DNA of 64,000 bases from Candidatus Nanohaloarchaea archaeon (GCA_047617745.1 JBLGBN010000001.1:32001-96000); one strand, 5' to 3'; counted from the stretch's first letter, positions 19,725 through 40,946 are shown. Made by a program: numbers and translations. Notes: generated from the letters alone by a model not told the origin.

Positions 19725-19732
19725 TTAGATCA

Positions 19733-20029: not shown

Positions 20030-20129
20030 GGATTTTGATTCGGTCTGCTGGTATAAAAACGGTGCGGTGTCGCCAAAACAAAAAGAAAAATAGAGTTGAG
20101 AGAAAAGATCTCTCCAAGCCGGGAAAACT

Positions 20130-20417: not shown

Positions 20418-20470
20418 ACTGTTTGGTCACCTCTAAACCCTTTATTGTGTAGAACTGATAAAAAACTGAC

Positions 20471-23303: not shown

Positions 23304-23532
23304 ACCTGATCCCTGCTAGATTTCCAGAGCTATCCTGAGTTTCAGATTCGTCTCCTGTAGGAAACTCATAACCATTACCTCCTTCTGGAGTAAAAAATCC
23401 CTGACCTTCAGAATTCTCACCGAAAAGTGACTGTCCAACTTGATCAAGGCTTCCGCTGAAAACAAGTGATACCGAGAGTACAATGCTGACAGCTACAACT
23501 ATCGCCACCACTACAGCGGTTTCAGCATTCAT
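23290..23532 (-). CDS. Small pilin-like protein without leader
   Basis: MNAETAVVVAIVVAVSIVL; ATGA overlap with upstream ORF. Confidence 0.7.
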   Translation of the reverse strand: MNAETAVVVAIVVAVSIVLSVSLVFSGSLDQVGQSLFGENSEGQGFFTPEGGNGYEFPTGDESETQDSSGNLAGIRYGRG

Positions 23533-23654
23533 GGAAGCAACCCCTGAAGAAATGTCTCCGCACCACCAGTCTGATTTTGGACCATGAAGATCAGGGCCAT
23601 CACTAAAGCGATTCCAAGCACCATTGATACAACCATCCTGATCGATATGCTCAT
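23529..23654 (-). CDS. 41-aa pilin-like microprotein
   Basis: Manual translation MSISIRMVVSMVLGIALVMALIFMVQNQTGGAETFLQGLLP; ATGA-coupled to next gene; TTTATTTA upstream. Confidence 0.75.
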   Translation of the reverse strand: MSISIRMVVSMVLGIALVMALIFMVQNQTGGAETFLQGLLP

Positions 23655-23693
23655 AAACAGTATGACTGGAAGCTCGGATAAATAAACTTGGAT

Positions 23694-23882
23694 TTAACTA
23701 CCGGAAGATCCGGCAGAACCACCGACCTCGGGGCTGAACTCTGCGACATGATCATTCAACTGGCCTCCAATCCCCTCCATCCAGCCCGTAGTAGCGAGGT
23801 AATACGCCATTACAAACATTATCGCCAGAGTGAGAGATGCAATAAGGAAAATAGGTTTATCCAGTCCTTTCCTCTTCTTCAT
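23694..23882 (-). CDS. Small type IV pilin
   Basis: MKKRKG/LDKPIFLIASL class III signal; GAGGGG SD. Confidence 0.8.
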   Translation of the reverse strand: MKKRKGLDKPIFLIASLTLAIMFVMAYYLATTGWMEGIGGQLNDHVAEFSPEVGGSAGSSGS

Positions 23883-23925
23883 TCTTAACCCCTCAACCGC
23901 TAATTTTAGGTTCCTAGCTAACATG

Positions 23926-25996: not shown

Positions 25997-26103
25997 GGTC
26001 TCAACCCCTGTGACCAGAATATTAGCATTGCTGCAACTATGATCATCGTTAATCCTATCTCGTACAGCATATACGTTGAGAGTTTTCCTTTACGTTGGGA
26101 CAC
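25993..26103 (-). CDS. 36-aa type IV pilin-like microprotein (GTG start)
   Basis: Manual translation MSQRKG/KLSTYMLYEIGLTMIIVAAMLIFWSQGLRP; GGAGGT SD inside the upstream gene; ATGA overlap downstream. Confidence 0.72.
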   Translation of the reverse strand: MSQRKGKLSTYMLYEIGLTMIIVAAMLIFWSQGLRP

Positions 26104-28228
26104 CTTGTACAATACCTCCGAACAAGACCGATACTATGATCAGGCTTAAACTGTAGAATATCATTCCTGAAATAAGTATCTTCCCGATGAACATGTTTCT
26201 GTAGGTTTTGTTCTCCCCCTCCTGGATCTTCATGTAGAATGTTCCAAGGATAAACAGTAGCTGGATAAGGTAAACACCAACAACGAACTGCAGTACTTCT
26301 GGAGGGATTGCCGAGTCAAGATTTCCAAGTATTCCTGTAAAGTCTCCTCCAGCTCCCGCCTGTGTCGATCCTATCTCTCCCTCTATATCAGAGAAAGATC
26401 TGCTGAGCTCGTACATCGCAGTTATAATCGTCTGAGACATCCCTACCGCTATACCTGAAACAATTGGTGCCAGAAGGTAGGCAAGCATCAGAATTGTTGT
26501 CGTAGTATCCTCCATCAGATCGTTGAGCCTTTCCTGCGTCTTATGGATGTTGTCAAGATACTTGGAGATTGTCATCATAGCCATGGAAGCCATATTGGTT
26601 CCTTTATCTGAGGACTTGAGAATCGCCTTCATCACTGTATGGATCATCTGTGACGGGAACTGCCTCAGAGCGCCGTAGCTCTCGTCGAAAATCGCTTTCT
26701 CAAATGTCATTCCCATGTCTTTGATGTTGTGAGAGGATTCTCTGAAAAGCGCAGAGATCTCCAGATCGGAGGTTGATTCCGCTGCTTCCTCCAGCGCTAA
26801 TTCAATAGGCGTACCTCCCGAGATCTTGTTTCCTAGCTGGAACAGTGCTGTTGGGAACTGCTGCTCAATGTTCTTGAGGTTCTCCTCTGCTTTCTTCCTT
26901 TTCTTGTTTCCAAGGATTAATGCTGTTCCAATACCGAGACCAGCTCCAGTAGTCAGACTTAAGCTCCTCATAAGCATCGCGAGCGGTGAGACTCCATCCG
27001 AACCCCCAAGAAGAGCCGGTATTGAGGTTTGCTCCAAGACTTCCGCTCCTACCGGGTAGGTATAAGGGAATATAAGATAGCCGACCATTCCGTATAGCCC
27101 TATAACGAAGAAAATCCCCAAGCCGATAGGCCATGTCGGGATTTCAATATCCAGAGATTCTATAAGATATTTTCCACGAGTTGGTAAGCTTTCCTCGCTG
27201 GTAGGTTTGGAACTGACTGTTGGGGGTCTGGAGCTTAACACCCTCTGCATGAACCAGTAAAGAAATCCAGGGAGCATAACATTGAACAGCAGAAACAAAT
27301 GGGTTATCGTAATACTCGAACCCATGAACACCGAGATAAGCGGTAGCATAATCATGCCGAGAACCGGGAGCATAGCACCCATAGCGTTCAGTATCATGAC
27401 CGGAGTTTTCAAGCCCTGTGCGTAATGTTTCATCTTCTCCTGTGTCCCATCAAGAATTCTATCAATCGAATCCTGAAGAAGCGACTCTCTTCTCTCCTTG
27501 TTGGGCTCATTTACCGCAGCTTTAAGCAGCTGGAGGGACTCCAGGAAGTCATCGTTATAGTCTTTCCAGGCTTTCGTGTACTTCTCCAGCGATTCCTCTA
27601 TACTGTTGTATTTACCAACCTCTACATCCCACAGAATACCTTTCAGATCTTTGGATATAGGCCCTTCAAGGTTTAGAGCTGCAAACCTGATGGCGCCTTC
27701 AAGATTAGGCGAGCTCCGCATGTATATTACCATGTAGAGTATCGATAGTATCATCTCACCGCTGCTCTTGATAACCTTGTTCTTGGCGGCGTAAACAGGC
27801 TTGTAGTAGACATAAGCCCCAGAAGCTGCCGATATAACTCCGGCCACCATCATAATCGAGACCGGGATAAAAGGGCCTAAAACCATGTTAACCATAAAAG
27901 CTAGAGACCACAACATGAAAAGCCCAAAGCTAACCATTACAGAAGCTGAAAGAACCATTCCCGGGGTTATATCCCACTTCAGGAGACGTAATGGCGGACT
28001 CAATTTCTTCTGACTCCTTTTCCCGGCTTTAATGTTCAGTATTTCAGAAGATTTGTTGCAAAGCTTCTCATACCTGCTCATCTGGTTCTCTTCTTTTTCT
28101 TCCTCTTTGTATTCTTTGTACTCACGGGAATAGCCTCTTTTCGAGCCCGTGTTATACGGTGGCATCTTCATACCGGCGTTCAAATCGTTTACTATATCTT
28201 TTAGCCTTTCACGCTCGTCCTGGTCCAT
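26090..28228 (-). CDS. Type IV pilus membrane platform protein (TadB/TadC, two T2SSF-like domains)
   Basis: Two cytoplasmic domains (YMRSSPNLEGAI; QFPTALFQLGNKISGGTPIELAL) each followed by TMs; directly downstream of the ATPase. Confidence 0.88.
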   Translation of the reverse strand: MDQDERERLKDIVNDLNAGMKMPPYNTGSKRGYSREYKEYKEEEKEENQMSRYEKLCNKSSEILNIKAGKRSQKKLSPPLRLLKWDITPGMVLSASVMVSFGLFMLWSLAFMVNMVLGPFIPVSIMMVAGVISAASGAYVYYKPVYAAKNKVIKSSGEMILSILYMVIYMRSSPNLEGAIRFAALNLEGPISKDLKGILWDVEVGKYNSIEESLEKYTKAWKDYNDDFLESLQLLKAAVNEPNKERRESLLQDSIDRILDGTQEKMKHYAQGLKTPVMILNAMGAMLPVLGMIMLPLISVFMGSSITITHLFLLFNVMLPGFLYWFMQRVLSSRPPTVSSKPTSEESLPTRGKYLIESLDIEIPTWPIGLGIFFVIGLYGMVGYLIFPYTYPVGAEVLEQTSIPALLGGSDGVSPLAMLMRSLSLTTGAGLGIGTALILGNKKRKKAEENLKNIEQQFPTALFQLGNKISGGTPIELALEEAAESTSDLEISALFRESSHNIKDMGMTFEKAIFDESYGALRQFPSQMIHTVMKAILKSSDKGTNMASMAMMTISKYLDNIHKTQERLNDLMEDTTTTILMLAYLLAPIVSGIAVGMSQTIITAMYELSRSFSDIEGEIGSTQAGAGGDFTGILGNLDSAIPPEVLQFVVGVYLIQLLFILGTFYMKIQEGENKTYRNMFIGKILISGMIFYSLSLIIVSVLFGGIVQGVPT

Positions 28229-28238
28229 TTTTACCGCC

Positions 28239-30509
28239 TCATACCTGCTGGTTCAGCCACTCCTGCCACCGGGCGAATATCCTTTCAGGATCCTGACTCC
28301 CGTACTCTTCTCCGACCTTTTCCGCCAGTATGTGGTATTTCTGGTTTGCCTTCACCACAAACTCTGCCTCAAGCAGCTCATCGTTGCCTGTTTCCTCTGC
28401 TCTCTCCACCAACTCTCTCTTCATCTTTTCTCTCAGCTTGATATTGTTCCAAACTGCCTCCCAGTCATTCTTCCATTCCCTTATGTTTTCCGCGATCCGG
28501 TTCAGAATCTCCGACTCGCCATTCTTCAGGGTGTCTGTCGGCACTAATTCGTCTTTATTCGAGTCGTAACGCATCAGATCGACAAAAGCACCTTCTTCCT
28601 GCGGATCATCAGTCCAGTCCTTTCTAACCTCTGTGATGCCGGTTACTCTCCTGTATGTTTCCAGGCCGTCCGGGCTCTGGATTTTGTTAACCGAGACAAT
28701 AATATCGGTCGCCTTGAAAGAGGTTCTTGGAACGTTCAGGTCGTTGACAACTCTGTCAAAAACAGAATAAGCTGACTCTCCGTGAATTGTTCCACCAACA
28801 AAGTTGGCTACAGCCCCGACACGCATAGCTTCGTAGAGCGTCTTGGCTTCATCGGATCTAACCTCTCCAATAACCAGAGCCGAGTCTCCTAATCTTAAAG
28901 AAGTTCTAATAGCTTCTTCAGCCGGTAGTTCATTCTCGACCTGCGTAATAACAGATCTAGACTTCATGGACTCGACGTTGAAACCTAGATCCTTCATCTG
29001 GCGGATTGGAAGTTCCATAGTGTCTTCAACAGTTACTATACGCTCTTTTTTCAGCAGTTCAAGCATTGAAGCTGATAATAGCGAGGTTTTACCTGCTCCT
29101 CTTGTACCTGCAAACAGAACTGATCGGTTGCCGTCAACTATAAACGATAGAAGCCCTGCGCCGAGCGGGTTGATGAAGTCCCGGTCTATGAAGAGAGGGA
29201 GTGTCCACGCCCGGGATCTGTGTCTCCTGAACGCGAACGCCAGTCCTTCCGGCGATAAGTTTTCCTGTATAATCGCGACTCTTGCCCGGCCGCCTGGGAC
29301 CTCTGTATCTGTATCGAGTACCGGGTTGGCTTCGTCCAATGGTCTGCCGGACTGTATCCTGAATCTGGTGGCCCAGGACTCGGCTTCCTCCTTTGTAGGT
29401 ATTAGGTTGGTCTCGCATTCCTCATATTCCTGGTGTTTAATGTAGATAGGCGAGTTACCAATAGGAGAGTTAATGAAGACGTCCTGAACCTTTGGATCCG
29501 CCAGCAGTAACTCAAGCACGCCTAGACCGGAAGTGTAACGGTTTAGTATCGATGTTAGCTGCTCTGATTCCTCTCTGGAGAGCTGTATATCCATCTGCTG
29601 GGCGATATCCCGTATCATATCCCGGCCGATGTTCTGGAATACCTGTCTCATTCTGTCGGGTCGTGCGAACTCACCGGACTCAGGTTGGTGAGATGCCAGA
29701 AATCTTCTGGCTGCATCCAGTAATTTGTATTTCTCTTCGGAAAGGTTGAACTCTGGCGGATTAACATGGTAAACGGGCTGAACCTGATCAGGTACATCGT
29801 AGACCGACACCTCTACATCGTTCCTTGATTCGTACCTGTCGATCTCCTCTCCTCTCTCTGGAGGGAGCGACATGAATTTCGTAAGCATGAAGTTTGGTCT
29901 AACCAGCGGATGGAAGAACTCTCTGTAGACCTCTCTGTCCCCTACATGGTGACCTGTTATAAATTCCTCGCTCTTTGCCTGGTCAATCATCTCGCAGTCC
30001 TCCAGCGTCTTCTTGACCGGTCGGATAACATCCTGTATAAAGTATTTCAGACATCTCTTCTTCTGGGGGTATGCTTCATTCATTTCCTGCTTGAGGTGTC
30101 TCTCTTTTCTTTTCAGCTGGACGTAACCCCCAATCGGGTCTTTTCGCAGCTGGTCAATAACTATCCTCTGAACATCAGGAAGGTGATCCTGGTACAGGCT
30201 CTCGCATTTATCTGTCCGGATGTTCTGTGACAGATATCCCTGTGAAGATATATCCCTTATTGCCTCGGAGATCTCCTTCAGCATTCTTACCTGCTCGTCG
30301 CCGTACTCGTAGTCACGGGACTCTGATAGTACTACTGAGGAGGCGTCAGGCACTTCCTGAAGTATATTGATAACTCTAGACATGACCTCAGGGTAATCCT
30401 CAATAGAAGCTCCATAGATTGAACCAAGCATGTTGACTTCTATCGTCCCACTCTCATCGTCGTATTCGTAGTCGAAAACGTCTTTGTCCTGTACGCTCAT
30501 ACCCAGCAT
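28239..30509 (-). CDS. Type IV pilus assembly ATPase (VirB11/TadA/ArlI family) with long N-terminal extension
   Basis: LLADPKVQDVFIN, Walker A GTRGAGKT, VEDTMEL, SLRLGDSALVIGEVR, GTIHG. Confidence 0.95.
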   Translation of the reverse strand: MLGMSVQDKDVFDYEYDDESGTIEVNMLGSIYGASIEDYPEVMSRVINILQEVPDASSVVLSESRDYEYGDEQVRMLKEISEAIRDISSQGYLSQNIRTDKCESLYQDHLPDVQRIVIDQLRKDPIGGYVQLKRKERHLKQEMNEAYPQKKRCLKYFIQDVIRPVKKTLEDCEMIDQAKSEEFITGHHVGDREVYREFFHPLVRPNFMLTKFMSLPPERGEEIDRYESRNDVEVSVYDVPDQVQPVYHVNPPEFNLSEEKYKLLDAARRFLASHQPESGEFARPDRMRQVFQNIGRDMIRDIAQQMDIQLSREESEQLTSILNRYTSGLGVLELLLADPKVQDVFINSPIGNSPIYIKHQEYEECETNLIPTKEEAESWATRFRIQSGRPLDEANPVLDTDTEVPGGRARVAIIQENLSPEGLAFAFRRHRSRAWTLPLFIDRDFINPLGAGLLSFIVDGNRSVLFAGTRGAGKTSLLSASMLELLKKERIVTVEDTMELPIRQMKDLGFNVESMKSRSVITQVENELPAEEAIRTSLRLGDSALVIGEVRSDEAKTLYEAMRVGAVANFVGGTIHGESAYSVFDRVVNDLNVPRTSFKATDIIVSVNKIQSPDGLETYRRVTGITEVRKDWTDDPQEEGAFVDLMRYDSNKDELVPTDTLKNGESEILNRIAENIREWKNDWEAVWNNIKLREKMKRELVERAEETGNDELLEAEFVVKANQKYHILAEKVGEEYGSQDPERIFARWQEWLNQQV

Positions 30510-30539: not shown

Positions 30540-31016
30540 GTGCCACAGCAGGATCTGTTAAACAGGATTGTTGACAGGGTCAACGACTTCAACAGAAGGA
30601 TCAGAGACCTTGAAGAAAAGGTCCGCAACCTTACAGCCAGAGTCAATACTCTCGACGACTCTCTTCTGGATAAGACAAATGACCTGCAGAACGATATACA
30701 GGAACTTGAAGATGATTTAGAGGAGATAAGGGACAGAATAGCGAATATGGAAGTCGATATCAAGGAATTAAACCGTGAGAAAAAGAAGTATGTAACCGAA
30801 CAGGAAATCGATGAGATAGAGAACTACATGGATTTGATGAACCCTATCCAGTCCTCCTTCGCAACTAAAAAGGAGGTTAAAGAAATAGTGAACAAGAGCA
30901 ACGGGGTTTCCGAGGAGAAAATCGAGGAAATAGTTGACAGAAAGATAAAAAGCAGAAGAACCAAACCAAATAATAAAAGAAGTTCCAAAACAAGTAGTGA
31001 GGAAGGACAAAAATGA
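30540..31016 (+). CDS. Coiled-coil protein, divergent from the pilus ATPase
   Basis: Continuous heptads then ENYMDLMNPI; GTG start. Confidence 0.75.
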   Translation: MPQQDLLNRIVDRVNDFNRRIRDLEEKVRNLTARVNTLDDSLLDKTNDLQNDIQELEDDLEEIRDRIANMEVDIKELNREKKKYVTEQEIDEIENYMDLMNPIQSSFATKKEVKEIVNKSNGVSEEKIEEIVDRKIKSRRTKPNNKRSSKTSSEEGQK

Positions 31017-31825
31017 AATTCCAGCTCTTCGGACGGCTCCGAGACAACCAGGAGGAAGAAGAAACCACGACTCAGGAAACAGGCTCTGGTTTCAACGACC
31101 AGGATGGAATATCTGATTTCGGAGGCGGCCTGCAGAGAACAGTTGAGAACCTGTTCGAACAGGGTTACTCCGAAGAGGAAGTAAGGCAGGAGCTTCAGGG
31201 ACAGTACTCCCGCGAAGAAGTGCAGGGAGCAATAAACCAGGCAGTTAAAACATCTGCCACAACACAGGAGGACGGACCGGAACCAATGACACCATACCAA
31301 GGAGAAAACGAAGACGTAAGCCCTATGGACGAAGGATTTAATGAAAACCAGCAGGATCAGGAACAGGGAATGAACCCTCAGCCTAACCCTCCTATGAATC
31401 AGCAGATGGGTCAACAGCAACCTCCAAATCAGGGAAATGGAAATGTTGAAGAATTAATTGAAACAATTGTAGCCGAGAACTTTGAAAGAGTTGAAAACGA
31501 ATTCGAAAATGTATACTCCGAAATTGACGAGATGAAGGAGCAGCTCGGAGAAATGGAAGACCGTATCCATGATCTTGAAGTTAGAGACGATGAAGATGAG
31601 ACGCAGGTTATCCAGAAGATGGATGAAATTGAAGATGATATTAACGAGTACCAGTCAAGGATCGGCGGTCTGGAGAAAGCCTTCCAGCAGGTTCTTCCAT
31701 CACTTGTTGACAATGTAAGAGATCTAACGCAGCTTGTACAGGAGATAAAACAGGAAAGAGGTATTGAAACAAGCTCAAACGTAGATCAAGATGATATTGA
31801 TGACATAGACATGGAAGAATGGTAA
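31013..31825 (+). CDS. Acidic protein: small helical domain, Q/P/N-rich linker, coiled coil
   Basis: GYSEEEVRQELQGQYSREEVQGA domain; ATGA overlap with upstream gene. Confidence 0.8.
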   Translation: MKFQLFGRLRDNQEEEETTTQETGSGFNDQDGISDFGGGLQRTVENLFEQGYSEEEVRQELQGQYSREEVQGAINQAVKTSATTQEDGPEPMTPYQGENEDVSPMDEGFNENQQDQEQGMNPQPNPPMNQQMGQQQPPNQGNGNVEELIETIVAENFERVENEFENVYSEIDEMKEQLGEMEDRIHDLEVRDDEDETQVIQKMDEIEDDINEYQSRIGGLEKAFQQVLPSLVDNVRDLTQLVQEIKQERGIETSSNVDQDDIDDIDMEEW

Positions 31826-31826: not shown

Positions 31827-32351
31827 TTAGTCTTCTTCTCCTGATTCTCCTTTTGTTATCGCGACTATAACTCCCAGAAGGAATACCAGTGTGAGGATAG
31901 GCATTACAACCTGGTCAAAAGATTCTCCCTCAAATAGCTGAATTAGCGATTCGATCGGGAAGTCAAGCTGGAACTGTATTATTAGAACACCAATAAACGC
32001 TACTGCTCCGACACCCATTACTGTCTTGGCTATCGGGCTGTCCTTATCGAGTTCGTTCAGATCAACCCCTGCAATCGCGAGGAGAACCATCAAGCCTATT
32101 ATACCGAAGGCCGTGAAAGCCACTGCGGCAGCAAAGTGAGGGAATAAACCAGCAGGAACAAACAGGTACAGACCCCCAATAGATATGAATGCGACCGCAA
32201 CTGCAACCGTTGCGTTGATAGTATCTTCTTCAAACCAGTCGTATTTATCTAGAGCTCCATAGGTTACTGCTAAGACTAGTAGCCATGGAAAGAACAGCTG
32301 GAATACATCCATCTGCATCATCGTTTCAACAATCGTCTCGAAAGCTCCCAT
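31827..32351 (-). CDS. Multi-TM membrane protein, LPF..Y..L family paralogue
   Basis: MDVFQLFFPWLLVLAVTYGALDK...INATVAVAVAF; about 5 TMs. Confidence 0.8.
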   Translation of the reverse strand: MGAFETIVETMMQMDVFQLFFPWLLVLAVTYGALDKYDWFEEDTINATVAVAVAFISIGGLYLFVPAGLFPHFAAAVAFTAFGIIGLMVLLAIAGVDLNELDKDSPIAKTVMGVGAVAFIGVLIIQFQLDFPIESLIQLFEGESFDQVVMPILTLVFLLGVIVAITKGESGEED

Positions 32352-32361
32352 AATTTTTCAC

Positions 32362-32961
32362 CTATTCATCGCTGTCGTCCATCATTTGAGTCCACCACTC
32401 ATTGGAGAAGAATGGTCTGATCGTATCCTGAGTGCTGCCACTGCCGTCACTTGACACCCACCAAAGCGCTGCTCCTACAAGCAGTATCCATATCATGCCA
32501 GATTCAAGCGTCCAGCCGAGCATCGACTGTAACTGCATGCTCTGGAACGCAGGAAGGCTGACTCCTAGACCTCCTGATGTCGCGAAAGCAGATCCTGCAA
32601 CAGCCACCATCACCATCACTACCAGCGGCGTATTTAGACCTCCGTTCTCTCCAAGGTTGTAACCCGTGAATGCAAGCAGGATTAGCAGCCCTATGAAGCC
32701 CATAAGGCCAACGGTTAATTTACCGAAGAACTGTACGAAAAAGCCTTGGTAGGCCGGGTTGACAACTACAAATCTTGCCAGGAAAAATGCTCCAATTATA
32801 GCTATAAGCGCGGGAAAATTCTTGTCAGTATCGCTTATTACCGGTACCTCTCTCAAGCCAGCGTATAGAACCACATAGGTTAGAACAAATGGCAGGACCC
32901 CTGTGAAGAAGTCCATCTGGGCCATTGTCTGTAAAAGCTGGTTAAAGCCGGCTACAGCCAC
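32362..32961 (-). CDS. Multi-TM membrane protein, LPF..Y..L family paralogue
   Basis: MDFFTGVLPFVLTYVVLYAGLRE...ALIAIIGAF; about 5 TMs; GTG start with AGGTGA SD. Confidence 0.8.
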   Translation of the reverse strand: MAVAGFNQLLQTMAQMDFFTGVLPFVLTYVVLYAGLREVPVISDTDKNFPALIAIIGAFFLARFVVVNPAYQGFFVQFFGKLTVGLMGFIGLLILLAFTGYNLGENGGLNTPLVVMVMVAVAGSAFATSGGLGVSLPAFQSMQLQSMLGWTLESGMIWILLVGAALWWVSSDGSGSTQDTIRPFFSNEWWTQMMDDSDE

Positions 32962-32965
32962 TTAA

Positions 32966-33220
32966 CTATTCACCTTGCTCCATATACTCTCTGACATTTC
33001 TGTTTAGAAGCCATAGCTCTCTCCCAATAATCATTAGTGCAACCATTGTCACCCATGGAAATATAGCATCTCCAAGTGTGATGAAAGAGTAGTTCTGGCT
33101 CTGGAATAGAAGCAGGTCTAGCAGTACGACTATAAATCCAAATGACAGGAAGGCTATAACAAATTCGTCGACCCAGTTTTCGATCTCGTAAACGTATTCG
33201 TGGAATTTTTTATCAGTCAT
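32966..33220 (-). CDS. Small two-TM membrane protein
   Basis: Two TMs; AGGTGA SD. Confidence 0.75.
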   Translation of the reverse strand: MTDKKFHEYVYEIENWVDEFVIAFLSFGFIVVLLDLLLFQSQNYSFITLGDAIFPWVTMVALMIIGRELWLLNRNVREYMEQGE

Positions 33221-33231
33221 TGAGAAATCAC

Positions 33232-33330
33232 CTACATCATACCCATTCCGCCACGTCTTCTGCGGCTCATAGCTTTTCCAATTGCAAAACCGACAGCCAC
33301 TCCTATAACGAGGACAGTCGGGTTATTCAT
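33232..33330 (-). CDS. 32-aa single-TM micropeptide
   Basis: Manual translation MNNPTVLVIGVAVGFAIGKAMSRRRRGGMGMM; its stop overlaps the SD of the next gene. Confidence 0.7.
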   Translation of the reverse strand: MNNPTVLVIGVAVGFAIGKAMSRRRRGGMGMM

Positions 33331-33491
33331 AACACAGCTTAGTATTGGTCCTTCACATGCCACTTTTGCTCACTCTAGTACTAAATTCCGAATCGCCTTT
33401 TATATTACTTTTCTGCTGTCCTGTCCTAGCCGCGAATACAATAACTCTATTAGCACTTTACCTCCTTAGAGAGTCTTGTAGTTACGGCAAG

Positions 33492-34619
33492 TTAATCTCT
33501 ACTCTCCAAAACTGTAGAGATATAATCTACCTCAACTTTCCCGAGGTCGACATCCAGAGCATCTGAAATTCCATGTCCTGGATTTCCGTTATCCTCTAAA
33601 AGAACTGTTCTGCCGTCACCGGTTTCGATATAGTCTATGGCATGTATCCCTCCCATCCGGATTCCTGCCTGGTAAATCCTCTTTTCTCCGTTACTCATCT
33701 CCGAGGGTTTCACCTCCTGGACATAATCCCCGCCTTGGTGAGAGTTCTGGGGTCTCCATCCTGCCTCAATTTCCGGATGCTCTCGTCCGGCAACAAAGAC
33801 CTCGGAACCTGCAAAGTACATTCTCTTCTCTGCGGTTTCCGGGTCTGTTATGTCAATATATTCCTCGAACTCAACGTTTCTCTCAATCTCTTCTAGGGAA
33901 TAATTTTCTCCTAATACGTCTTCCAGATAATCATTTATTGCTTCTCCTTTCCCGTCAGGCTCGACTAGGCTCACGCCTTCTCCCTGATTTCTGTCCTGTG
34001 GTTTTGCTATTATTTTCTCACCGTTCCTCGCCTTTCTGTAGGCTTCCTCCACGCTGTAGGAGCCCGGTGTTTCAACGCCAAGAGAATCATAAAACCTCTT
34101 TGTAGCTCTCTTGTTCTCCATTACTCTCTTCGGACCGGTGCGGCCTATGAACTCCAGACCATGATCTTTCTCTAAGCTCTGGATGCTGTTCCAAATGTGG
34201 TTCTCGAAAAGTTCAAGCTCCCCAAAACCGTATGCGTTAGAAATTTCGCCGATAAAATCCCTATAATCCTCGTTCATTTTCTGGTAGTCCTCCTCTATGT
34301 TTGAGAAAAACGAGGAAGGTCTGATCCTCAGCAGAGAATCTTCAAGTTCTCCAGGGGATAAACCTCCTATCTTGATCTCCCCTTCTTCACCTAGCTCCAG
34401 ATCCGAAATCTGTACATTTTCGACATCATAACTGTTTTCCAGTCGGTCAACAGTTTCACTCCAACCTCCTCTATTTCTTCCAAATGAGACTATATCCGGA
34501 GATCCAGAGTTGGATGACCTGTCCTCAAAACCCTGAGCTGTAGCTGGCTCGGCAGTTTCAAATGTTGGGAAAACTAGTTTCCTCTGGGTTACCTTGCTCT
34601 TCTTAACCGAGGAAGACAT
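33492..34619 (-). CDS. ATP-grasp ligase, RimK-like
   Basis: MENKRAT, GVETPGS, IIAKP..NQGEGVSLV, FEEYI, NSHQGG, AIDYI, LLEDNGNPG (ExN motif). Confidence 0.85.
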   Translation of the reverse strand: MSSSVKKSKVTQRKLVFPTFETAEPATAQGFEDRSSNSGSPDIVSFGRNRGGWSETVDRLENSYDVENVQISDLELGEEGEIKIGGLSPGELEDSLLRIRPSSFFSNIEEDYQKMNEDYRDFIGEISNAYGFGELELFENHIWNSIQSLEKDHGLEFIGRTGPKRVMENKRATKRFYDSLGVETPGSYSVEEAYRKARNGEKIIAKPQDRNQGEGVSLVEPDGKGEAINDYLEDVLGENYSLEEIERNVEFEEYIDITDPETAEKRMYFAGSEVFVAGREHPEIEAGWRPQNSHQGGDYVQEVKPSEMSNGEKRIYQAGIRMGGIHAIDYIETGDGRTVLLEDNGNPGHGISDALDVDLGKVEVDYISTVLESRD

Positions 34620-34673
34620 AGTTACTATTCGAGAGTAAAAACTTAAATCCGCTAGGGTTCTGAAATATCCCGA

Positions 34674-35150
34674 TCAATCACTGTCTGCACCAGGACCTGA
34701 GGACATCATATGGTAGAACAGGAACAGCACCACGAGGAACAATCCTGCAATCGATACCAGCGCGAGACCCTGAAGTGCGTTTCTGATCATACCCCAGAAA
34801 GGCGAAGGTATCAGCATCGCTGTTACAACCAGCGACAGTAACATTGACTGTTTCCTAGCTCTTTTTCTCTCCCCTCCGCGGTTAGGGAAAGGTCCATCAT
34901 TCACTGCTAGCGTAAATCCAAGTATCTTGTAGAAAGCGAACTGCAGAATTACAGCGATAGCTATGAAAGGAGCAACAAGTTCCGTAGCTAACTCTCCCTG
35001 AGAATCATACTCAGGAATAGAATAGCCTTGGGCTACATCCTCCTGGTGACTTCCATAATAATGTGAACCGGACGCAGCACCAAGCATCCCTATACAGAAA
35101 AGAAGTACAACTGAGATTCTAGCCCAGGTCAAAGTCATCGTCTCCACCAC
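34674..35150 (-). CDS. Signal peptide plus three-TM protein, LPF..Y..L family paralogue
   Basis: ELVAPFIAIAVILQFAFYKIL...SMLLSLVVTAMLIP. Confidence 0.75.
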   Translation of the reverse strand: MVETMTLTWARISVVLLFCIGMLGAASGSHYYGSHQEDVAQGYSIPEYDSQGELATELVAPFIAIAVILQFAFYKILGFTLAVNDGPFPNRGGERKRARKQSMLLSLVVTAMLIPSPFWGMIRNALQGLALVSIAGLFLVVLFLFYHMMSSGPGADSD

Positions 35151-35379
35151 CTAGATCCATATCACCTGCTCCGCCGCCTCTAGTATGCTGCAGATAGGTT
35201 GGAATAACCTCATCAACCATGAAACCTGCAACTAGACCGGTAACAGAAATAACTATTATACGAGTCGCGAACTCAGATAGACCTATCATGGACTGAACCT
35301 GCCCGGTTATACCAAGCGAAACAATATAACCTGCAGCGCTTGCTACGGGAAAGGCGATGTATTTCCATGGATCGTTCAT
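35119..35379 (-). CDS. Small two-TM membrane protein with Gly/Asp tail
   Basis: Two TMs, tail GGGAGDMDLGGGDDDFDLG. Confidence 0.75.
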   Translation of the reverse strand: MNDPWKYIAFPVASAAGYIVSLGITGQVQSMIGLSEFATRIIVISVTGLVAGFMVDEVIPTYLQHTRGGGAGDMDLGGGDDDFDLG

Positions 35380-35431
35380 ATTAAATCAAATCGACGTTAT
35401 TGAATAAAAAATGAAGGATTGATGGGTGAAA

Positions 35432-35923
35432 TTAACCTTCTGGGGCACCAGCCCATCTTTGATACATTGTAGCTCCTTTCTCTATCTCGTTGATCAATCC
35501 GCTAATTTCTTCTAGATCCTTCTCTCCCTCTTTCTCGTCCTGTAAGTCCTTCTTCGACTTATTGTAGGCGTCTCTTACCTCTTGCAGAGCCTCTTCAATC
35601 CCTCTTAGAATCCTTTCAACCTTCTGTACTTCTGTTTCAAGCTGATTGGCGCTTCCTATACCCGCAGTCCTGTCTATAACCTTCTCTACCTGCTGGTGTA
35701 CCTGTGCGTGGGTTGAATTATCTACGTCGATCTCTCGGAAGTAAATAATCGCTCTCAGGACTTCATTTTCCTCTTCTAAGGCCTGCAAAGCACTTGCCAG
35801 TCTTTGCTCTGCATCTTTTTGCTCCTGTATTATCTGTTCCTCCATCTGCTCTTCTCTATCTAGATGGTTTATGAGATCTTTCATATCTTGAACGAAAGTT
35901 TGCATATCAACGTTTTCGACCAT
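35432..35923 (-). CDS. All-helical hairpin protein, paralogous to the C-terminal domain of 35984..38848
   Basis: RAIIYFREIDV...HAQVHQQVEKV...GIGSA shared with the upstream protein; AGGAGA SD. Confidence 0.85.
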   Translation of the reverse strand: MVENVDMQTFVQDMKDLINHLDREEQMEEQIIQEQKDAEQRLASALQALEEENEVLRAIIYFREIDVDNSTHAQVHQQVEKVIDRTAGIGSANQLETEVQKVERILRGIEEALQEVRDAYNKSKKDLQDEKEGEKDLEEISGLINEIEKGATMYQRWAGAPEG

Positions 35924-35983
35924 GTTTATCTCCTAAGAACCTATTAACGGTTTTTCTTTTTATTACCTTTGAATCTACACGGT

Positions 35984-38848
35984 TTAAGGCGAGTTATGCC
36001 AGCCTTTCTCTACACATTTCTGGTAGTTATCTGATCCTTTGATTATCTCATTTACAATGCGTTCCGCTTCATCCAAACTCTCAAGCGCTGCTTCCTTGTC
36101 TTTGAGGTGGTCTTCAGACTCCTTAAATGCTTCCTGGACCTCAGCAAGGGCTTTCTCAATCTCCATCAACACATCTTCTACTTCCTCCACCTTTGTCTCA
36201 AGAGTTGAAGCAGAACCAACCCCGTTAATATTCCTAACTATTTTTTCTACCTTCTGATGTACTTGTGCATGAGATTCCTTCTCGACATCTACTTCCCTAA
36301 AGTAGATTATAGCCCTAAATACCGATTCCATCTCTAAAAGCTCTTTTAAGGCCTCTTTTAGTCTTTTCGCAGCCTCTCTATGTTTTTCCAGTATATCCTG
36401 ATCTATTTTGTCTCCTTCTCTCAGTTGTTCAATCAACTCTCTAATATCCTCTTCAAGTGAGCCGGGATCAAGCGTTGGTTCGAAGTCAGGCCCTGCAGAG
36501 CCACCCACCTGTATCCTCGCAACTCTATCCTCCTGCTGGCCATTTTGGGTAGTTACTGTAACATTTAAGGAATACTGTTCACCTCGTTCCAGTCTAAACT
36601 CTCCCTGTGCATCAGCCAATGTAATCCCTTCACCATTATAGCCGTAGCTTGATCCGTTAACACCTATCCTTTTCTGCCTGTTCTGATCGAGTTTTCCTCC
36701 TGAAAGCCCCACCATTATCTCCTGGAGATCCATTCCATTACAGGAAACTCGTGGATTAACCTCTATCTGATCCGATCTTATACCGGCGGGAGCTTCGTAA
36801 ACAAACCCTCCATTATCAAGCTGGTTTTCAGGTAGTGGATCTCCTGTCTGGAGATTAAACAAGTATATATTCTCTACATTAATCTGGGTGTTTTCGCCCC
36901 CACCCTCTATATCTCCTTTTTCTATCTCTTTTATCAGGAATATTATTTCTCTAATTACTTTTTCGCTTATCGCTGTTTCCTCTCCGTTTACTATGATATT
37001 GTTCACTATCTGGGCAACCAGTGTTTGCATTATGTTCTCTGGAACCTGATTTATCAACTTGGCAAACCGTATTAGTGTGTTATAGTGGATCTTGAGATCT
37101 CCAAAGTCCTGAATATTGATAGTTACTTCATCTCCTTCTACTCTGAAATCTCCGTTATGCACTGCTACAAGGAACTCCGTTATCTGTAATGCGAACTGCT
37201 CGTAACTTTCCTGCTGTAGGTTATTCTCTACATAGTTTACAAATACCTGCTCTAGTTCTTCCACATGTCTATGGTTGATCTCCTGCTCAAGAGTCTGCTC
37301 TATGGTTAGATCGCCCTGGCTCTCCTCTATATCTATATCAATTATTTGCTGGATCAGCTGCTGGTTTAACCCCCGATCTCCCTCAATTATGAGCAGGGAT
37401 ATAATTGACAGGAGTTTTTCCTGATCTGGCTCTGTTTGGCCCAGTATCTTTATCAGCTGCCTTATGACATCTATGTCGATATCTACATCGTTTCCGTTCT
37501 GACCTGGAATCATGACGTTATTGTTGCCTATCTGGACGTTCCCTTCCAGCAGATGTGCGAACTGCATCATGGCAGGGGTCATCATCTGCTGCTGCATCTG
37601 CATCTGGTTCATCATATTGTGCCACATCATCATCTGCTGCTGCATCTGCTGATTGTTTATATTGATATCCGGAGAATCTCCTCCCTGTCCTCCAAACAGA
37701 GCTGCAAAGAGCTGCTGTTGGTTGCCTCCCGGACCTCCGCCAGAACCTGAGCTGCCATTTCCTACAGTGAAGGTGGCGGTTTCTTGATTAACTTCTCCAT
37801 TATTGTCTGCTAAATCAGCAATAACATCATAAGTTCCATCAGATATACTTGGATTAGATCCTCCTAATATATCCGAATTCAAGTTATATACCTCAGAGTG
37901 ACTATCTGCTCCACCGAGATTAAACGTTTGGCTGCCAAATGCCGGCACTTTTATCTCAAGTATGTCTAAACCAGAACTAGAGTTATCACTACAGCTAACG
38001 TGAATATCTATATCATTCGCGGAAGCACCGCTTCCGGCATCCGATGCTCTAAGAGTGGTAATTGAGGGAGGTGTGCTCCCGCCTCCTCCACCATTAACAT
38101 CTAAATGACCTGAATCTCCATTTGTGTTACCATCGTTATCTTCCGCTACAACCCTGTAAGAGTAAGAACCTGCCGGTATAGGGCTTGAACCTCCTCTGAT
38201 ATTAGTTATAGGGATAGAAGCACTATCAGATGGACCGTTCAAACTATGATCCATTGAGTATGAGTCAAATTCTATCCGAGCCTTATCCAGACCGCTGCCA
38301 GAATTATCACTGACAGATATCTGCATCTCGATGTCATCAGAAGACATTCCAGGAGAGGGATTCGAAGGATTAAAACCTACACTTATAGATGGCGGATTGC
38401 TAGAATTCCCGCCTCCACCACCTCCTCCCAAGTTAAATCCTGACCACCAGCGGTATATAGCGTAAGCCAGTCCGGCGAGGCCTGCCATTGCCAGTAGGAA
38501 CGCGAATATTCCTAGAGGGTAGAATCTCAGGATCAGGAAGGAAAGGACAGCGGAAAGCATAATTGCGGATTTCTTTGGAACTGTGCTGGCTCCTGAAGGC
38601 ATGTTGCCTGCCGCCCAGTTAAACGCTCCCAGAAGTACGAAGTATAGTATGGCTAAAATACCTATAAACGGTAGAAAAACATTGTAGAAGAAACTGCCGG
38701 AATCGTTAACATCGGAGTAAGGGAAGAGTTCGTCAAGCCATTCGTAACCTGCAGAACCTGCTCCGCCGGCCCCCTGGGCGCCTGCAACCTGAAAGAAAAT
38801 TAGCGTCAGAAGAACGATGGCTATAATCCGGTTTTTCCAGGAACCCAT
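35984..38848 (-). CDS. 954-aa membrane-anchored multidomain protein (signal peptide, 3 TM, Ig-like repeats, Q/M-rich tract, C-terminal helical domain)
   Basis: VFLPFIGILAILYFVL TM; duplicated PPSI...SDNS.SGLD...G.Y...DN.G..N units; QQMQQQMMM tract. Confidence 0.85.
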   Translation of the reverse strand: MGSWKNRIIAIVLLTLIFFQVAGAQGAGGAGSAGYEWLDELFPYSDVNDSGSFFYNVFLPFIGILAILYFVLLGAFNWAAGNMPSGASTVPKKSAIMLSAVLSFLILRFYPLGIFAFLLAMAGLAGLAYAIYRWWSGFNLGGGGGGGNSSNPPSISVGFNPSNPSPGMSSDDIEMQISVSDNSGSGLDKARIEFDSYSMDHSLNGPSDSASIPITNIRGGSSPIPAGSYSYRVVAEDNDGNTNGDSGHLDVNGGGGGSTPPSITTLRASDAGSGASANDIDIHVSCSDNSSSGLDILEIKVPAFGSQTFNLGGADSHSEVYNLNSDILGGSNPSISDGTYDVIADLADNNGEVNQETATFTVGNGSSGSGGGPGGNQQQLFAALFGGQGGDSPDININNQQMQQQMMMWHNMMNQMQMQQQMMTPAMMQFAHLLEGNVQIGNNNVMIPGQNGNDVDIDIDVIRQLIKILGQTEPDQEKLLSIISLLIIEGDRGLNQQLIQQIIDIDIEESQGDLTIEQTLEQEINHRHVEELEQVFVNYVENNLQQESYEQFALQITEFLVAVHNGDFRVEGDEVTINIQDFGDLKIHYNTLIRFAKLINQVPENIMQTLVAQIVNNIIVNGEETAISEKVIREIIFLIKEIEKGDIEGGGENTQINVENIYLFNLQTGDPLPENQLDNGGFVYEAPAGIRSDQIEVNPRVSCNGMDLQEIMVGLSGGKLDQNRQKRIGVNGSSYGYNGEGITLADAQGEFRLERGEQYSLNVTVTTQNGQQEDRVARIQVGGSAGPDFEPTLDPGSLEEDIRELIEQLREGDKIDQDILEKHREAAKRLKEALKELLEMESVFRAIIYFREVDVEKESHAQVHQKVEKIVRNINGVGSASTLETKVEEVEDVLMEIEKALAEVQEAFKESEDHLKDKEAALESLDEAERIVNEIIKGSDNYQKCVEKGWHNSP
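37580..37649. repeat. 22-bp direct repeat within a Gln/Met low-complexity tract
   Basis: CATCATCTGCTGCTGCATCTGC at 37580-37601 and 37628-37649. Confidence 0.85.
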
Positions 38849-40881: not shown

Positions 40882-40946
40882 AGAATCAACTGATTTTTAA
40901 CACTTACTGCTTAATGTGTTACTGCTCGATTACAAAAGTGGTTATT

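What the first reader, a model, noticed from the sequence alone, without database searches (positions are those of the whole stretch)
31827..38848. Candidate undescribed membrane apparatus next to the pilus locus: four paralogous membrane subunits, a helical subunit with its anchored copy, and an ATP-grasp ligase
Seen: nine co-oriented genes. Four share a first-TM motif (FFPWLLVLAVTYGAL / VLPFVLTYVVLYAGL / VAPFIAIAVILQFAF / FLPFIGILAILYFVL) followed by a similar second TM. The block also has three tiny TM proteins, a RimK-like ligase and a duplicated helical domain. None matches a transporter, Sec or Tat component I recognise. Inference: a hetero-oligomeric membrane complex with a polymerising or scaffolding component, possibly a host-contact or translocation structure of a DPANN symbiont, working with the adjacent Tad-like ATPase.
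Basis: partly seen in the sequence, partly recalled or inferred. Interest (0 to 1): 0.85.

Follow-up and report, generated by a model that had tools for sequence, protein, structure and literature searches.

The report
Unnamed membrane module of DPANN pilus machine
A nine-gene block in a tiny salt-loving symbiotic archaeon encodes unnamed membrane proteins that stay next to a pilus-type motor in several related lineages, so it is probably an undescribed part of that surface-filament machine.

Summary
g8 and g9 are clear paralogs (hhalign E 4e-23). g4 and the N-terminus of g1 are clear paralogs (5e-11). The link between the two pairs is weaker (3e-5). g2 duplicates the g1 C-terminus (E 3e-36). 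g5 is a RimK-like ATP-grasp ligase (profile E 7e-15).

The block is not a separate apparatus beside the pilus locus. Its core, the 5-TM g8/g9 family, has no Pfam or NCBIfam model. The family has 2,294 cluster representatives, and every hit named by organism is from a DPANN lineage. In Nanohaloarchaeota, Aenigmatarchaeota and Woesearchaeota-like contigs it sits as 2-5 tandem copies beside two coiled-coil proteins and a T2SSE ATPase, often with a TadC platform.

g3 and g7 (and, as far as tested, g6) are confined to the window's own family. g1, g2 and g5 vary between strains. Pilin-like genes lie downstream of TadC.

Best reading (0.6): these are membrane and cytoplasmic-face accessory subunits of the DPANN type IV filament machine. 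Physical association is untested; the complex prediction gave no verdict. Hamm et al. 2024 described the locus by ATPase, TadC and coiled-coil proteins. I found no description of the membrane family.

The parts
35984..38848 (-). g1, 954 aa. Signal peptide plus three TM helices homologous to g4, then a long variable region, then a C-terminal helical domain paralogous to g2.
   Evidence: g4-g1N E 5e-11; a protein with the same N-terminal build and a different C-terminus sits in nearly every related locus. Ig-like Pfam hits are all below cut-off.
35432..35923 (-). g2, 163 aa. Soluble helical-bundle protein without signal peptide or TM; free copy of the g1 C-terminal domain.
   Evidence: E 3e-36; no TM. 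AF2 gives five helices, pLDDT 72. No PDB match at E<=0.001. Family found in 4 of 21 loci; weaker relatives in 3 more.
35119..35379 (-). g3, 86 aa. Small membrane protein with conserved DPWKY and GF(L/M)VDE motifs and a Gly/Asp-rich tail, usually ending in a ...DFDF-type motif.
   Evidence: Found in 41 of 70 genomes of the phylum: the window's own genome plus 40 of 49 others of family f1; 0 of 20 in other families.
34674..35150 (-). g4, 158 aa. Signal peptide plus three TM helices; short paralog of the g1 N-terminus, more distantly related to g8/g9.
33492..34619 (-). g5, 375 aa. RimK-like ATP-grasp ligase (C-terminal ~200 aa); accessory.
   Evidence: 5zct RimK, E 6.8e-15. (Pfam RimK in 3 of 7 orthologs). 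Present in 7 of 21 loci.
33232..33363 (-). g6, 43 aa. Single-TM protein with a basic stretch and a Gly/Met-rich tail.
   Evidence: (18 of 21 loci).
32966..33220 (-). g7, 84 aa. N-terminal amphipathic helix plus two TM helices. The C-terminal residue is Glu in 17 of 18 orthologs.
   Evidence: Found in 45 of 70 genomes: the window's own genome plus 44 of 49 others of family f1; 0 of 20 elsewhere. Always just upstream of g8 where listed.
32362..32961 (-). g8, 199 aa. 5-TM protein of a DPANN-wide unnamed family, predicted N-out/C-in.
31827..32351 (-). g9, 174 aa. Tandem paralog of g8.
31013..31825 (+). cc270. Acidic coiled-coil protein, convergent with g9. Conserved C-terminal ...D(I/M)DME(E/D)W motif.
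   Evidence: FlaC_arch E 4e-5 and ArlX E 0.008, both below cut-off..
30540..31016 (+). cc158. Coiled-coil protein, divergent from the ATPase gene.
28239..30509 (-). T2SSE-family secretion ATPase, 756 aa, with a ~300-aa N-terminal extension.
   Evidence: T2SSE 56.4 bits, cut-off 24.9. (TadA-type and FlaI models at E ~1e-37, both far below their cut-offs).
26090..28228 (-). TadC/FlaJ-like platform protein, 712 aa.
   Evidence: T2SSF 33.4 bits, cut-off 25.2, two stretches.
19395..25815 (-). p629 (23926-25815) and seven small ORFs. Several have pilin-like N-termini ([KR]G followed by a hydrophobic helix). These are the probable filament subunits.
   Evidence: Read by eye; no pilin predictor was run. 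p629 relatives follow TadC in 18 of 21 loci.

Best explanation
The block is the accessory arm of a DPANN-specific type IV filament (pilus-like) machine.

Conserved core across phyla:
- tandem paralogs of an unnamed 5-TM membrane protein (here g8 and g9, with the signal-peptide-bearing derivatives g4 and the g1 N-terminus);
- two cytoplasmic coiled-coil proteins (cc158, cc270);
- a T2SSE ATPase, often with a TadC-like platform.

Proposed working (inferred):
- The 5-TM paralogs form a hetero-oligomeric collar in the membrane around the TadC platform.
- Their basic cytoplasmic loops and acidic C-terminal tails, together with the small proteins g3, g6 and g7, offer docking sites on the inner face.
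- The coiled-coil proteins, g2 and the g1 C-terminal domain build a cytoplasmic scaffold that holds or regulates the ATPase hexamer.
- The filament itself is made from the pilin-like proteins encoded downstream of TadC, after cleavage by the prepilin peptidase encoded on another contig.
- g5, where present, adds amino acids to a cytoplasmic C-terminal Glu. g7 is the best candidate.

Shown here: the homologies, the predicted topology and the conserved gene linkage. Inferred: every physical contact and every role.
For: (1) Co-occurrence. In 70 genomes of the phylum the g8/g9 profile matched 60 and the ATPase 61. Both were present in 59, neither in 8, one alone in 3. In 50 of the 59 they share a contig, at most 4,363 bp apart.

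(2) Synteny in 21 loci. The order is DUF357-[variable]-g3-g4-[variable, g5]-g6-g7-g8-g9, then cc270 and cc158 on the other strand, then ATPase-TadC-p629.

(3) Aenigmatarchaeota. In 6 of 9 loci, 3-5 tandem g8-type genes follow cc158-cc270, which are divergent from the ATPase. In two of these (L043, L044) the array begins 34-38 nt after cc270, on the same strand. The other 3 loci lack flank. The family was found in 100 of 101 genomes of that phylum. In 5 of 5 genomes examined, all significant copies lie in one locus, bar a 130-aa fragment on a second contig and one stop-ridden weak match.

(4) Woesearchaeota-like metagenome loci of >=9 kb. cc270 lies beside the tandem array in 21 of 26, cc158 as well in 20, and the ATPase in 19. 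The housekeeping neighbours dph5 and DUF357 were found in none of the 26, so the module is kept where the wider synteny is not.

(5) Topology. 239 of 270 homologs have 5 predicted TM helices. K+R per segment runs 0.51 / 2.83 / 0.38 / 1.75 / 0.63 / 2.83, which means N-out/C-in. Relatives with a longer N-terminus carry a signal peptide. This puts the region after TM3 of g1, and the soluble g2, on the cytoplasmic side with the ATP-dependent g5 and the ATPase.

(6) cc270 gives sub-threshold hits to the archaellum accessory families FlaC_arch and ArlX.

(7) Makarova et al. 2016 (passages) report a T4P subclade with a cytoplasmic coiled-coil protein, whose ATPase also occurs in nanoarchaea with no cognate pilins identified.
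Against: There is no direct evidence of contact.

In Nanohaloarchaeota and Aenigmatarchaeota the housekeeping genes dph5 and Trm5 also stay next to the block. Conserved order alone therefore does not prove shared function there.

Exceptions: 9 of 59 genomes have the two parts on different contigs, all in fragmented assemblies. One metagenome locus (L081) has no coiled-coil or ATPase gene within 7.7 kb. L110 has cc270 only. In 5 loci with >=3 kb beyond the ATPase no TadC was found.

No known type IV filament machine has such polytopic accessory subunits. g8 shows no similarity to TadC (E >= 0.05, no better than reversed controls).

The g5-g7 link is only a C-terminal-residue argument. g5 is in 7 of 21 loci, while the g7 Glu is nearly universal.
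Confidence: 0.6

Rival explanations
1. The g8/g9 family is an independent membrane function, for example a channel, transporter, lipid-handling or membrane-homeostasis protein that DPANN cells need. It is only a frozen neighbour of the pilus genes.
For: It is polytopic and near-universal (100 of 101 and 60 of 70 genomes), as a housekeeping membrane protein would be. Housekeeping dph5 and Trm5 are also conserved neighbours in two phyla. L081 carries the array with no coiled-coil or ATPase gene within 7.7 kb. Sub-threshold hits to the N-terminal part of DUF2070 appear in 4 of 29 and 5 of 22 homologs.
Against: The array-coiled-coil-ATPase order survives where the housekeeping neighbours do not (0 of 26 loci with dph5 or DUF357). 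It also survives an in-place inversion of the array between phyla. In two Aenigmatarchaeota loci (L043, L044) the array follows cc270 by 34-38 nt on the same strand. No transporter family matches.
Confidence: 0.2
2. The membrane paralogs are themselves the building blocks of a lipid-associated tube or pilus, in the manner of VirB2/TraA or CedA1 conjugative pilins. The ATPase/TadC pair would extract them from the membrane to form the DPANN-host bridge.
For: Tandem paralogs, and signal-peptide-bearing forms made of helical hairpins. Single weak hits to T4SS_pilin (1 of 29, E 0.0067) and TrbC/VirB2 (1 of 22, E 0.0072). The proteins of the DPANN nanotubes and attachment organelles are unknown (passages).
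Against: Extracting five TM helices from the membrane would be costly. The weak hits are isolated and below cut-off. Ordinary pilin-like genes lie downstream of TadC. There is no VirB4-type ATPase in the locus.
Confidence: 0.07
3. The four TM proteins are unconventional type IV pilins or pseudopilins.
For: They sit in a pilus locus and have a conserved N-terminal hydrophobic motif.
Against: g8 and g9 have no [KR]G class III signal at the N-terminus. They have 5 TM helices instead of one. g1 and g4 carry Sec-type signal peptides followed by three TM helices.
Confidence: 0.03
4. The block is a mobile, viral or defence island inserted beside the pilus genes.
For: g1, g2 and g5 vary between strains. 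g2 gives three weak PADLOC coiled-coil hits at E 3e-4 to 9e-4.
Against: No PHROGs hit for any of the nine proteins. GC content is even across the window. The core genes are vertically conserved, in fixed order, in 44-47 of 49 genomes of the family.
Confidence: 0.02

Closest known systems
Type-IV-pilus-like loci with coiled-coil proteins in cluster 2 DPANN (Hamm et al. 2024, Nat Commun 15:6449; section 8 read in full)
   Same: [quoted passage not shown] The paper says proteomics detected several locus proteins.
   Different: The text I read names only the ATPase, TadC, coiled-coil proteins and (locus 1) FlaF/PilA. It does not mention the 5-TM paralogs, g3/g6/g7, the anchored helical proteins or the ATP-grasp ligase. 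Its Supplementary Dataset 13 lists 10 neighbours on each side, but only the dataset's description is held, not the table, so these genes may be listed there unnamed. I could not tell whether this window is their locus 1 or locus 2.
Archaellum and archaeal type IV pilus assembly machines (ArlI/ArlJ with ArlX or ArlC/D/E; Tad/Epd, Aap, Ups pili)
   Same: A T2SSE ATPase plus a T2SSF platform, with cytoplasmic coiled-coil accessory proteins. cc270 gives sub-threshold FlaC_arch and ArlX hits. Pilin-like genes are nearby, and the prepilin peptidase is encoded elsewhere.
   Different: To my knowledge (recalled, not tested here) none of these has tandem 5-TM accessory proteins. The ATPase reaches neither the FlaI nor the TadA NCBIfam cut-off.
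Paralogous platform proteins TadB/TadC (T2SSF family)
   Same: Several polytopic paralogs beside one secretion ATPase.
   Different: g8, g9, g4 and g1N show no similarity to the locus's own TadC (hhalign E 0.22-0.51, same as reversed controls) and no T2SSF hit.
Type IV secretion / archaeal Ced DNA-import systems (VirB6/CedA polytopic protein with small VirB2/VirB3-like membrane proteins; recalled, not fetched)
   Same: A polytopic protein plus several very small TM proteins beside a secretion-superfamily ATPase. The ATPase here also hits VirB11/TrbB models at about 1e-15.
   Different: No VirB4/HerA-type ATPase. The platform is TadC-like. VirB2/T4SS-pilin hits are isolated and below cut-off.
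RimK / LysX ATP-grasp ligases (for g5 only)
   Same: The ortholog profile matches RimK (5zct E 6.8e-15, 4iwx 8.5e-15), alpha-L-glutamate ligase (7qyr 9e-14) and LysX (1uc8 1.9e-7) over about 200 residues.
   Different: g5 has an extra ~165-aa N-terminal region with no match. The substrate is unknown. The window protein alone is below Pfam cut-offs. g5 is present in only 7 of 21 loci.

Membership tests
Type IV filament machinery locus (T4P/Tad/archaellum kind) | T2SSE-family hexameric secretion ATPase | tested here: met
   Pfam T2SSE 56.4 bits vs cut-off 24.9.
Type IV filament machinery locus (T4P/Tad/archaellum kind) | T2SSF-family polytopic platform protein | tested here: met
   Pfam T2SSF 33.4 bits vs cut-off 25.2, two stretches.
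Type IV filament machinery locus (T4P/Tad/archaellum kind) | Pilins with a class III signal peptide | tested here: inconclusive
   Small ORFs downstream of TadC begin with [KR]G followed by a hydrophobic helix. This was read by eye in the window and in 7 other loci. No pilin predictor was run and cleavage is not shown.
Type IV filament machinery locus (T4P/Tad/archaellum kind) | Prepilin peptidase (A24) in the genome | tested here: met
   PF01478 27.5 bits vs cut-off 26.5, on contig C7 beside another T2SSE ATPase and not in this locus.
T2SSF platform paralogs (TadB/TadC), for g8/g9/g4/g1N | Sequence or profile similarity to T2SSF | tested here: not met
   hhalign against the locus's TadC alignment gives E 0.22-0.51, the same as reversed controls. 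No Pfam hit.
Type IV pilin, for g8/g9/g4/g1N | N-terminal class III signal followed by a single hydrophobic helix | tested here: not met
   239 of 270 family members have 5 predicted TM helices. g1 and g4 have Sec-type signal peptides plus 3 TM helices.
RimK-type ATP-grasp ligase, for g5 | ATP-grasp domain with RimK-family sequence similarity | tested here: met
   Profile of 7 orthologs vs PDB: RimK 5zct E 6.8e-15 over 200 residues. Pfam RimK in 3 of 7 orthologs, best 9.4e-11. The window protein alone is below cut-off.
RimK-type ATP-grasp ligase, for g5 | Ligation of amino acids to a C-terminal Glu of a protein substrate | not testable with these tools
   The only lead is that g7 ends in Glu in 17 of 18 orthologs.
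DUF2070 (PF09843) | Score at or above Pfam's gathering cut-off (30 bits) | tested here: not met
   Best hits 20.6 and 20.5 bits (E 1.6e-4 and 1.7e-4), seen in 4 of 29 and 5 of 22 distant homologs, always to the N-terminal ~150 profile positions. No hit for the window's g8 or g9. This is only a lead to remote homology.
DPANN CCP/T4P locus of Hamm et al. 2024 | CpaF-like ATPase, TadC and coiled-coil proteins together in a cluster 2 DPANN genome | tested here: met
   Named relatives are Nanohaloarchaea.
DPANN CCP/T4P locus of Hamm et al. 2024 | Orthology to their NAR1 locus 1 or locus 2 proteins | not tested
   The NAR1 sequences were not at hand, and Dataset 13 is not held as text.
VirB2/TrbC-type conjugative pilin | Pfam T4SS_pilin or TrbC match | tested here: not met
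   One of 29 (E 0.0067) and one of 22 (E 0.0072) homologs, both below cut-off. None for the window proteins.

The most novel reading that the evidence does not exclude
The conserved module is the 5-TM paralog array, two coiled-coil proteins, the T2SSE ATPase (often with TadC) and the downstream pilins. In this reading it is the genetic basis of the DPANN-host attachment and bridging organelle seen by cryo-ET (cone, portal and intercellular filament or nanotube). The protein composition of that organelle is stated to be unknown. The 5-TM paralogs would form the membrane portal through which the filament, and possibly host material, passes.
Probability: 0.15. Interest if true: 0.9.

Novelty: new variant of a known kind. 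Interest (0 to 1): 0.62.

Why it matters
DPANN archaea depend on physical contact with a host. The proteins that build their contact structures are largely unknown: Johnson et al. 2024 (passages) state this for the attachment organelle.

A membrane protein family with no Pfam or NCBIfam model is present in 60 of 70 and 100 of 101 genomes of two phyla. It is almost always fixed beside a pilus-type motor and two coiled-coil proteins. That makes it a concrete, testable candidate for the membrane part of such a machine.

It would also be the first type IV filament system known with polytopic accessory subunits other than the platform.

The nanohaloarchaeal version adds lineage-specific small proteins, membrane-anchored variable cytoplasmic domains and a RimK-like ligase. 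This points to tunable regulation, or post-translational tailing, at the base of the machine. Cultivated nanohaloarchaeon-haloarchaeon co-cultures exist in which this could be tested.

Tried and rejected
- Complex prediction of g8 with g9, each as an alignment: no verdict, score 0.00, controls not run. This counts neither for nor against binding.
- Fold search of the g8 AF2 model (pLDDT 77). Foldseek against PDB gave no match at E<=0.001. VIA-align wide gave a best Z of 7.4, on helical hairpins of GPCRs only, which is within the chance range for helical models.
- Fold search of the g2 model (pLDDT 72). Best hit was a MIC60 helical bundle at E 0.11. ESM Atlas for g2 scored 0.78, which is uninformative.
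- ESM Atlas for g8. Top clusters were Woesearchaeota/Nanobdellota hypothetical proteins at 0.91. I used this only as a lead and later checked it by sequence.
- PHROGs: nothing for the nine proteins. PADLOC: only three weak coiled-coil hits for g2.
- hhalign of g8, g9, g4, g1N, g3, g6 and g7 against TadC: nothing above controls. g3-g6 gave E 9.7e-5 but over only 12 columns (a GxxxG-like TM stretch), so I did not take it as homology.
- g2 against cc158 and cc270: no similarity (E 0.13, 0.053).
- phmmer of g5 alone against PDB found nothing; only the ortholog profile did.
- RNA evidence: no RNA holder was listed among 17 runs.
One call failed on a wrong handle type.
- The supplements of Hamm et al. 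2024 hold only dataset descriptions.
- Literature searches for a description of the membrane family were made, with passages. None mentions it.

Full report
**What is there.** The window comes from a nanohaloarchaeal genome; close homologs of g8 are named 'Nanohaloarchaea archaeon' in NCBI. Nine ORFs lie on the minus strand at exactly the coordinates given: g1 (954 aa), g2 (163), g3 (86), g4 (158), g5 (375), g6 (43), g7 (84), g8 (199) and g9 (174). Gaps between them are short. The same strand continues upstream into a DUF357 gene and diphthine synthase.

Downstream, g9 ends 1 nt from the end of a convergent coiled-coil gene (cc270). A second coiled-coil gene (cc158) precedes cc270 on the same strand. 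cc158 is divergent from a T2SSE-family ATPase (756 aa), which is followed by a T2SSF/TadC-like platform (712 aa). After TadC come a 629-aa protein and seven small ORFs. Several of these begin with [KR]G followed by a hydrophobic helix, as archaeal pilins do. I read this by eye and ran no predictor.

**Check of the observation.** The four quoted motifs are in the sequence.

| Comparison | Result |
|---|---|
| g8 vs g9 | BLASTP E 1e-8; hhalign prob 99.5, E 4e-23 |
| g4 vs g1 N-terminus | hhalign prob 97.1, E 5.2e-11 |
| g8 vs g1N | E 3.3e-5 |
| g8 vs g4 | E 2.6e-4 |
| g9 vs g4 | E 0.0072 |
| g9 vs g1N | E 0.52 |
| best of 42 reversed controls | E 0.014 |
| g2 vs g1 residues 793-954 | 40% identity, E 3e-36 |

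So there are two firm pairs and a weaker link between them. The weak matches fall in the expected register. An iterated search from g4 reaches the g8 type. An Aenigmatarchaeota relative with a signal peptide in front of an otherwise g8-like protein bridges the two builds.

g5 alone is below Pfam's ATP-grasp cut-off. A profile of seven orthologs hits RimK structures at E 6.8e-15, and 3 of 7 orthologs hit Pfam RimK. g3, g6 and g7 are conserved genes (18 of 21 loci each). Apart from one NCBIfam hit at E 0.073 for g3, none of g3, g4, g6, g7, g8 or g9 has a Pfam or NCBIfam match at E<=0.1.

**The g8/g9 family.**
- A profile of 42 nanohaloarchaeal members found 2,294 cluster representatives at E<=0.001 among 1.84 billion. 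Of these, 820 were at <=1e-10. The 150 best hits listed are mostly 140-226 aa and, with few exceptions, matched over nearly the whole profile.
- Hits that carry an organism name are Nanohaloarchaea (1), Aenigmatarchaeota (2), Pacearchaeota (3), Woesearchaeota (3) and Nanoarchaeota/Nanoarchaeia (3).
- None of the 120 hits listed has a precomputed Pfam domain.
- Of 270 homologs, 239 have five predicted TM helices. K+R per segment alternates 0.51 / 2.83 / 0.38 / 1.75 / 0.63 / 2.83, which means N-out, C-in.
- The AF2 model of g8 (pLDDT 77) is all-helical and found no meaningful PDB relative.
- A proline in TM1, the 'LPF' of the motif, is nearly invariant.
- Sub-threshold hits to the N-terminal part of DUF2070 recur in distant members (4 of 29 and 5 of 22). 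This is only a lead.

**Linkage to the pilus motor.**

In the 70 genomes held for the phylum, the family matched 60 and the ATPase 61.

| Genomes | Count |
|---|---|
| both present | 59 |
| neither present (all 73-91% complete) | 8 |
| one alone | 3 |
| of the 59: same contig, at most 4,363 bp start to start | 50 |
| of the 59: different contigs (fragmented assemblies) | 9 |

Twenty fetched loci plus the window show one gene order: Trm5 - dph5 - DUF357 - [variable] - g3 - g4 - [variable, sometimes g5] - g6 - g7 - g8 - g9, then cc270 and cc158 on the other strand, then ATPase - TadC - p629.

In Aenigmatarchaeota, 6 of 9 loci show TadC/ATPase divergent from cc158-cc270, followed by 3-5 tandem g8-type genes on the same strand as the coiled-coil genes. 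The array follows directly in two of them and after a 3-5 kb insertion in the other four. The other 3 loci are too short or lack upstream flank. The family is in 100 of 101 genomes sampled from that phylum. In five genomes checked, all significant copies sit in one locus, bar a 130-aa fragment on a second contig and one stop-ridden weak match.

For Woesearchaeota-like relatives I examined 26 metagenome loci of at least 9 kb, out of 80 returned.

| Feature beside the tandem paralogs | Loci of 26 |
|---|---|
| cc270 | 21 |
| cc158 as well | 20 |
| ATPase | 19 |
| TadC-like gene | 8 |
| array runs to the end of the contig | 4 |
| nothing within 7.7 kb (L081) | 1 |
| cc270 only (L110) | 1 |
| >=3 kb beyond the ATPase, no TadC match | 5 |

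In these loci dph5 and DUF357 were found 0 of 26 times. The module therefore persists where the housekeeping neighbours do not. This matters because in the other two phyla those housekeeping genes are also conserved neighbours.

**Layers of the block.**
- g7 is in 45 of 70 genomes and g3 in 41 of 70 (counts include the window's own genome). All of these belong to the window's own family f1: 44 of 49 and 40 of 49 of the other f1 genomes. Neither was found in the 20 genomes of other families. They were also not detected in the Aenigmatarchaeota or metagenome loci. They are family-level additions.
- g5 is in 7 of 21 loci, always between the g4 region and g6.
- The g2-type helical domain is in 4 of 21 loci, with weaker relatives in three more.
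- Nearly every locus has, after g4, a 250-680-aa protein with the g1-type N-terminus (signal peptide ending in ...AQ, then TM helices) and an unrelated C-terminal region. It is often followed by a soluble helical protein.
- By homology to g4 and g8 and by the positive-inside pattern, the region after TM3 is cytoplasmic. Relatives of the g1 middle region that are anchored by a two-TM hairpin followed by a basic stretch point the same way. g2 has no signal peptide or TM. I therefore place the 'anchored copy' on the inner face of the membrane. This is an inference. The Ig-like Pfam hits in g1 are all below cut-off and do not decide it.

**C-terminal motifs.** g7 ends in Glu in 17 of 18 orthologs, and in Gly-Glu in 15. 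g3 ends in an acidic-aromatic ...DFDF-type tail. cc270 usually ends in ...DME(E/D)W. All these ends are cytoplasmic by the predicted topology. RimK-family enzymes extend or use a C-terminal Glu of a protein (established for RimK/S6 and LysX/LysW; recalled). That makes g7 the best guess for a g5 substrate, but nothing here tests it.

**Mechanism proposed.** The ATPase and TadC form a type IV filament motor. Pilin-like proteins downstream supply the filament, and the A24 peptidase on contig C7 processes them. The 5-TM paralogs form a hetero-oligomeric membrane collar. The coiled-coil proteins and the g2/g1 helical domains form a cytoplasmic scaffold, comparable in role to ArlX or ArlC/D/E of the archaellum (cc270 gives sub-threshold FlaC_arch and ArlX hits).

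Only the homologies, topology and linkage are shown; the contacts are inferred. I give this 0.6. The main rival (0.2) is an unrelated membrane function kept as a frozen neighbour. The idea that the paralogs are themselves tube or pilus subunits gets 0.07. Unconventional pilins and a mobile island are unlikely.

**Comparison with what is known.**
- Hamm et al. 2024 (section 8 read) described two conserved type-IV-pilus-like loci with CpaF, TadC and coiled-coil proteins across cluster 2 DPANN. This window is one of them or a close relative.
- Makarova et al. 2016 (passages) noted a T4P subclade with a cytoplasmic coiled-coil protein, whose ATPase occurs in nanoarchaea without identifiable pilins.
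- Makarova et al. 2019 (passages) noted that DPANN T4P loci hold unrecognisable components.
- None of the passages I read names the 5-TM family or the small membrane proteins (searches; passages 20-22, 47, 69-72). Dataset 13 of Hamm et al. may list them as neighbours, but it is not held.
- The family is not T2SSF-like and not pilin-like.
- Four earlier notes of this scan on Woesearchaeota-type genomes reached the same reading. They are AI notes, not independent evidence. I re-derived their core claim.

**Verdict.** This is a new variant of a known kind: a type IV filament machine with a conserved, undescribed set of polytopic and small membrane subunits. In this lineage it also has strain-variable cytoplasmic add-ons and a RimK-like ligase.

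Noticed in passing
Orthologs of window 28239-30509, e.g. L039:12612-16601; also G004, G009, G024, G028, G039, G048, G053, G054, G057, G062: In about 11 of 61 genomes the ATPase gene is one open frame of 1,125-2,013 aa. Residues ~1-498 and ~493-756 are separated by an insert. In L039 the insert is an intein (Intein_splicing E 1.5e-24, LAGLIDADG_3 E 4.9e-15) placed inside the T2SSE domain. The window's own ATPase has none.
   Followed up: partly
window 19395-25815 (minus strand): p629 and seven small ORFs lie downstream of TadC. Several have [KR]G plus hydrophobic-helix N-termini like archaeal pilins. Similar genes follow TadC in other nanohaloarchaeal and Aenigmatarchaeota loci.
   Followed up: partly
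window 32966-33220 (g7), 35119-35379 (g3), 31013-31825 (cc270): Conserved C-terminal end motifs. g7 ends in Glu in 17 of 18 orthologs (Gly-Glu in 15). g3 usually ends in an acidic-aromatic ...DFDF-type tail. cc270 usually ends in ...DME(E/D)W. These may be docking or modification sites.
   Followed up: partly
G000 contigs C7:15082-17426, C1:19781-20449, C11:11660-12511: The genome has four T2SSE ATPases in all. The window's is the most divergent (57 bits against 115-128). The only A24 prepilin peptidase match lies beside another of them on contig C7.
   Followed up: no
window 40818-46334 (plus strand): Just beyond the Trm5 gene there are two acidic helical proteins with no family (40818-41615, 41666-42334), a Tat-signal protein (42387-43481), and a 924-aa protein with PKD and CARDB domains (43560-46334), probably a surface protein.
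   Followed up: no
L081 and L110 (metagenome loci): Two exceptions to the module. L081 has three tandem 5-TM paralogs with no coiled-coil or ATPase gene within 7.7 kb. L110 has cc270 but no cc158 or ATPase within 7 kb.
   Followed up: no
Distant homologs of g8 (e.g. P0120, P0124, P0131, P0135): Repeated sub-threshold hits (E 1.6e-4 to 0.01) to the N-terminal ~150 positions of DUF2070. That archaeal membrane family is present in Haloferax volcanii and Sulfolobus acidocaldarius but was not found in this genome.
   Followed up: partly
L040, L042, L046, L048 (Aenigmatarchaeota loci): In four of the six linked loci a 3-5 kb insertion of unrelated genes separates cc270 from the paralog array. In L040, the one I read, the insert includes a minus-strand, signal-peptide-bearing g8-like protein with a coiled-coil tail (L040:6523-7248).
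   Followed up: no
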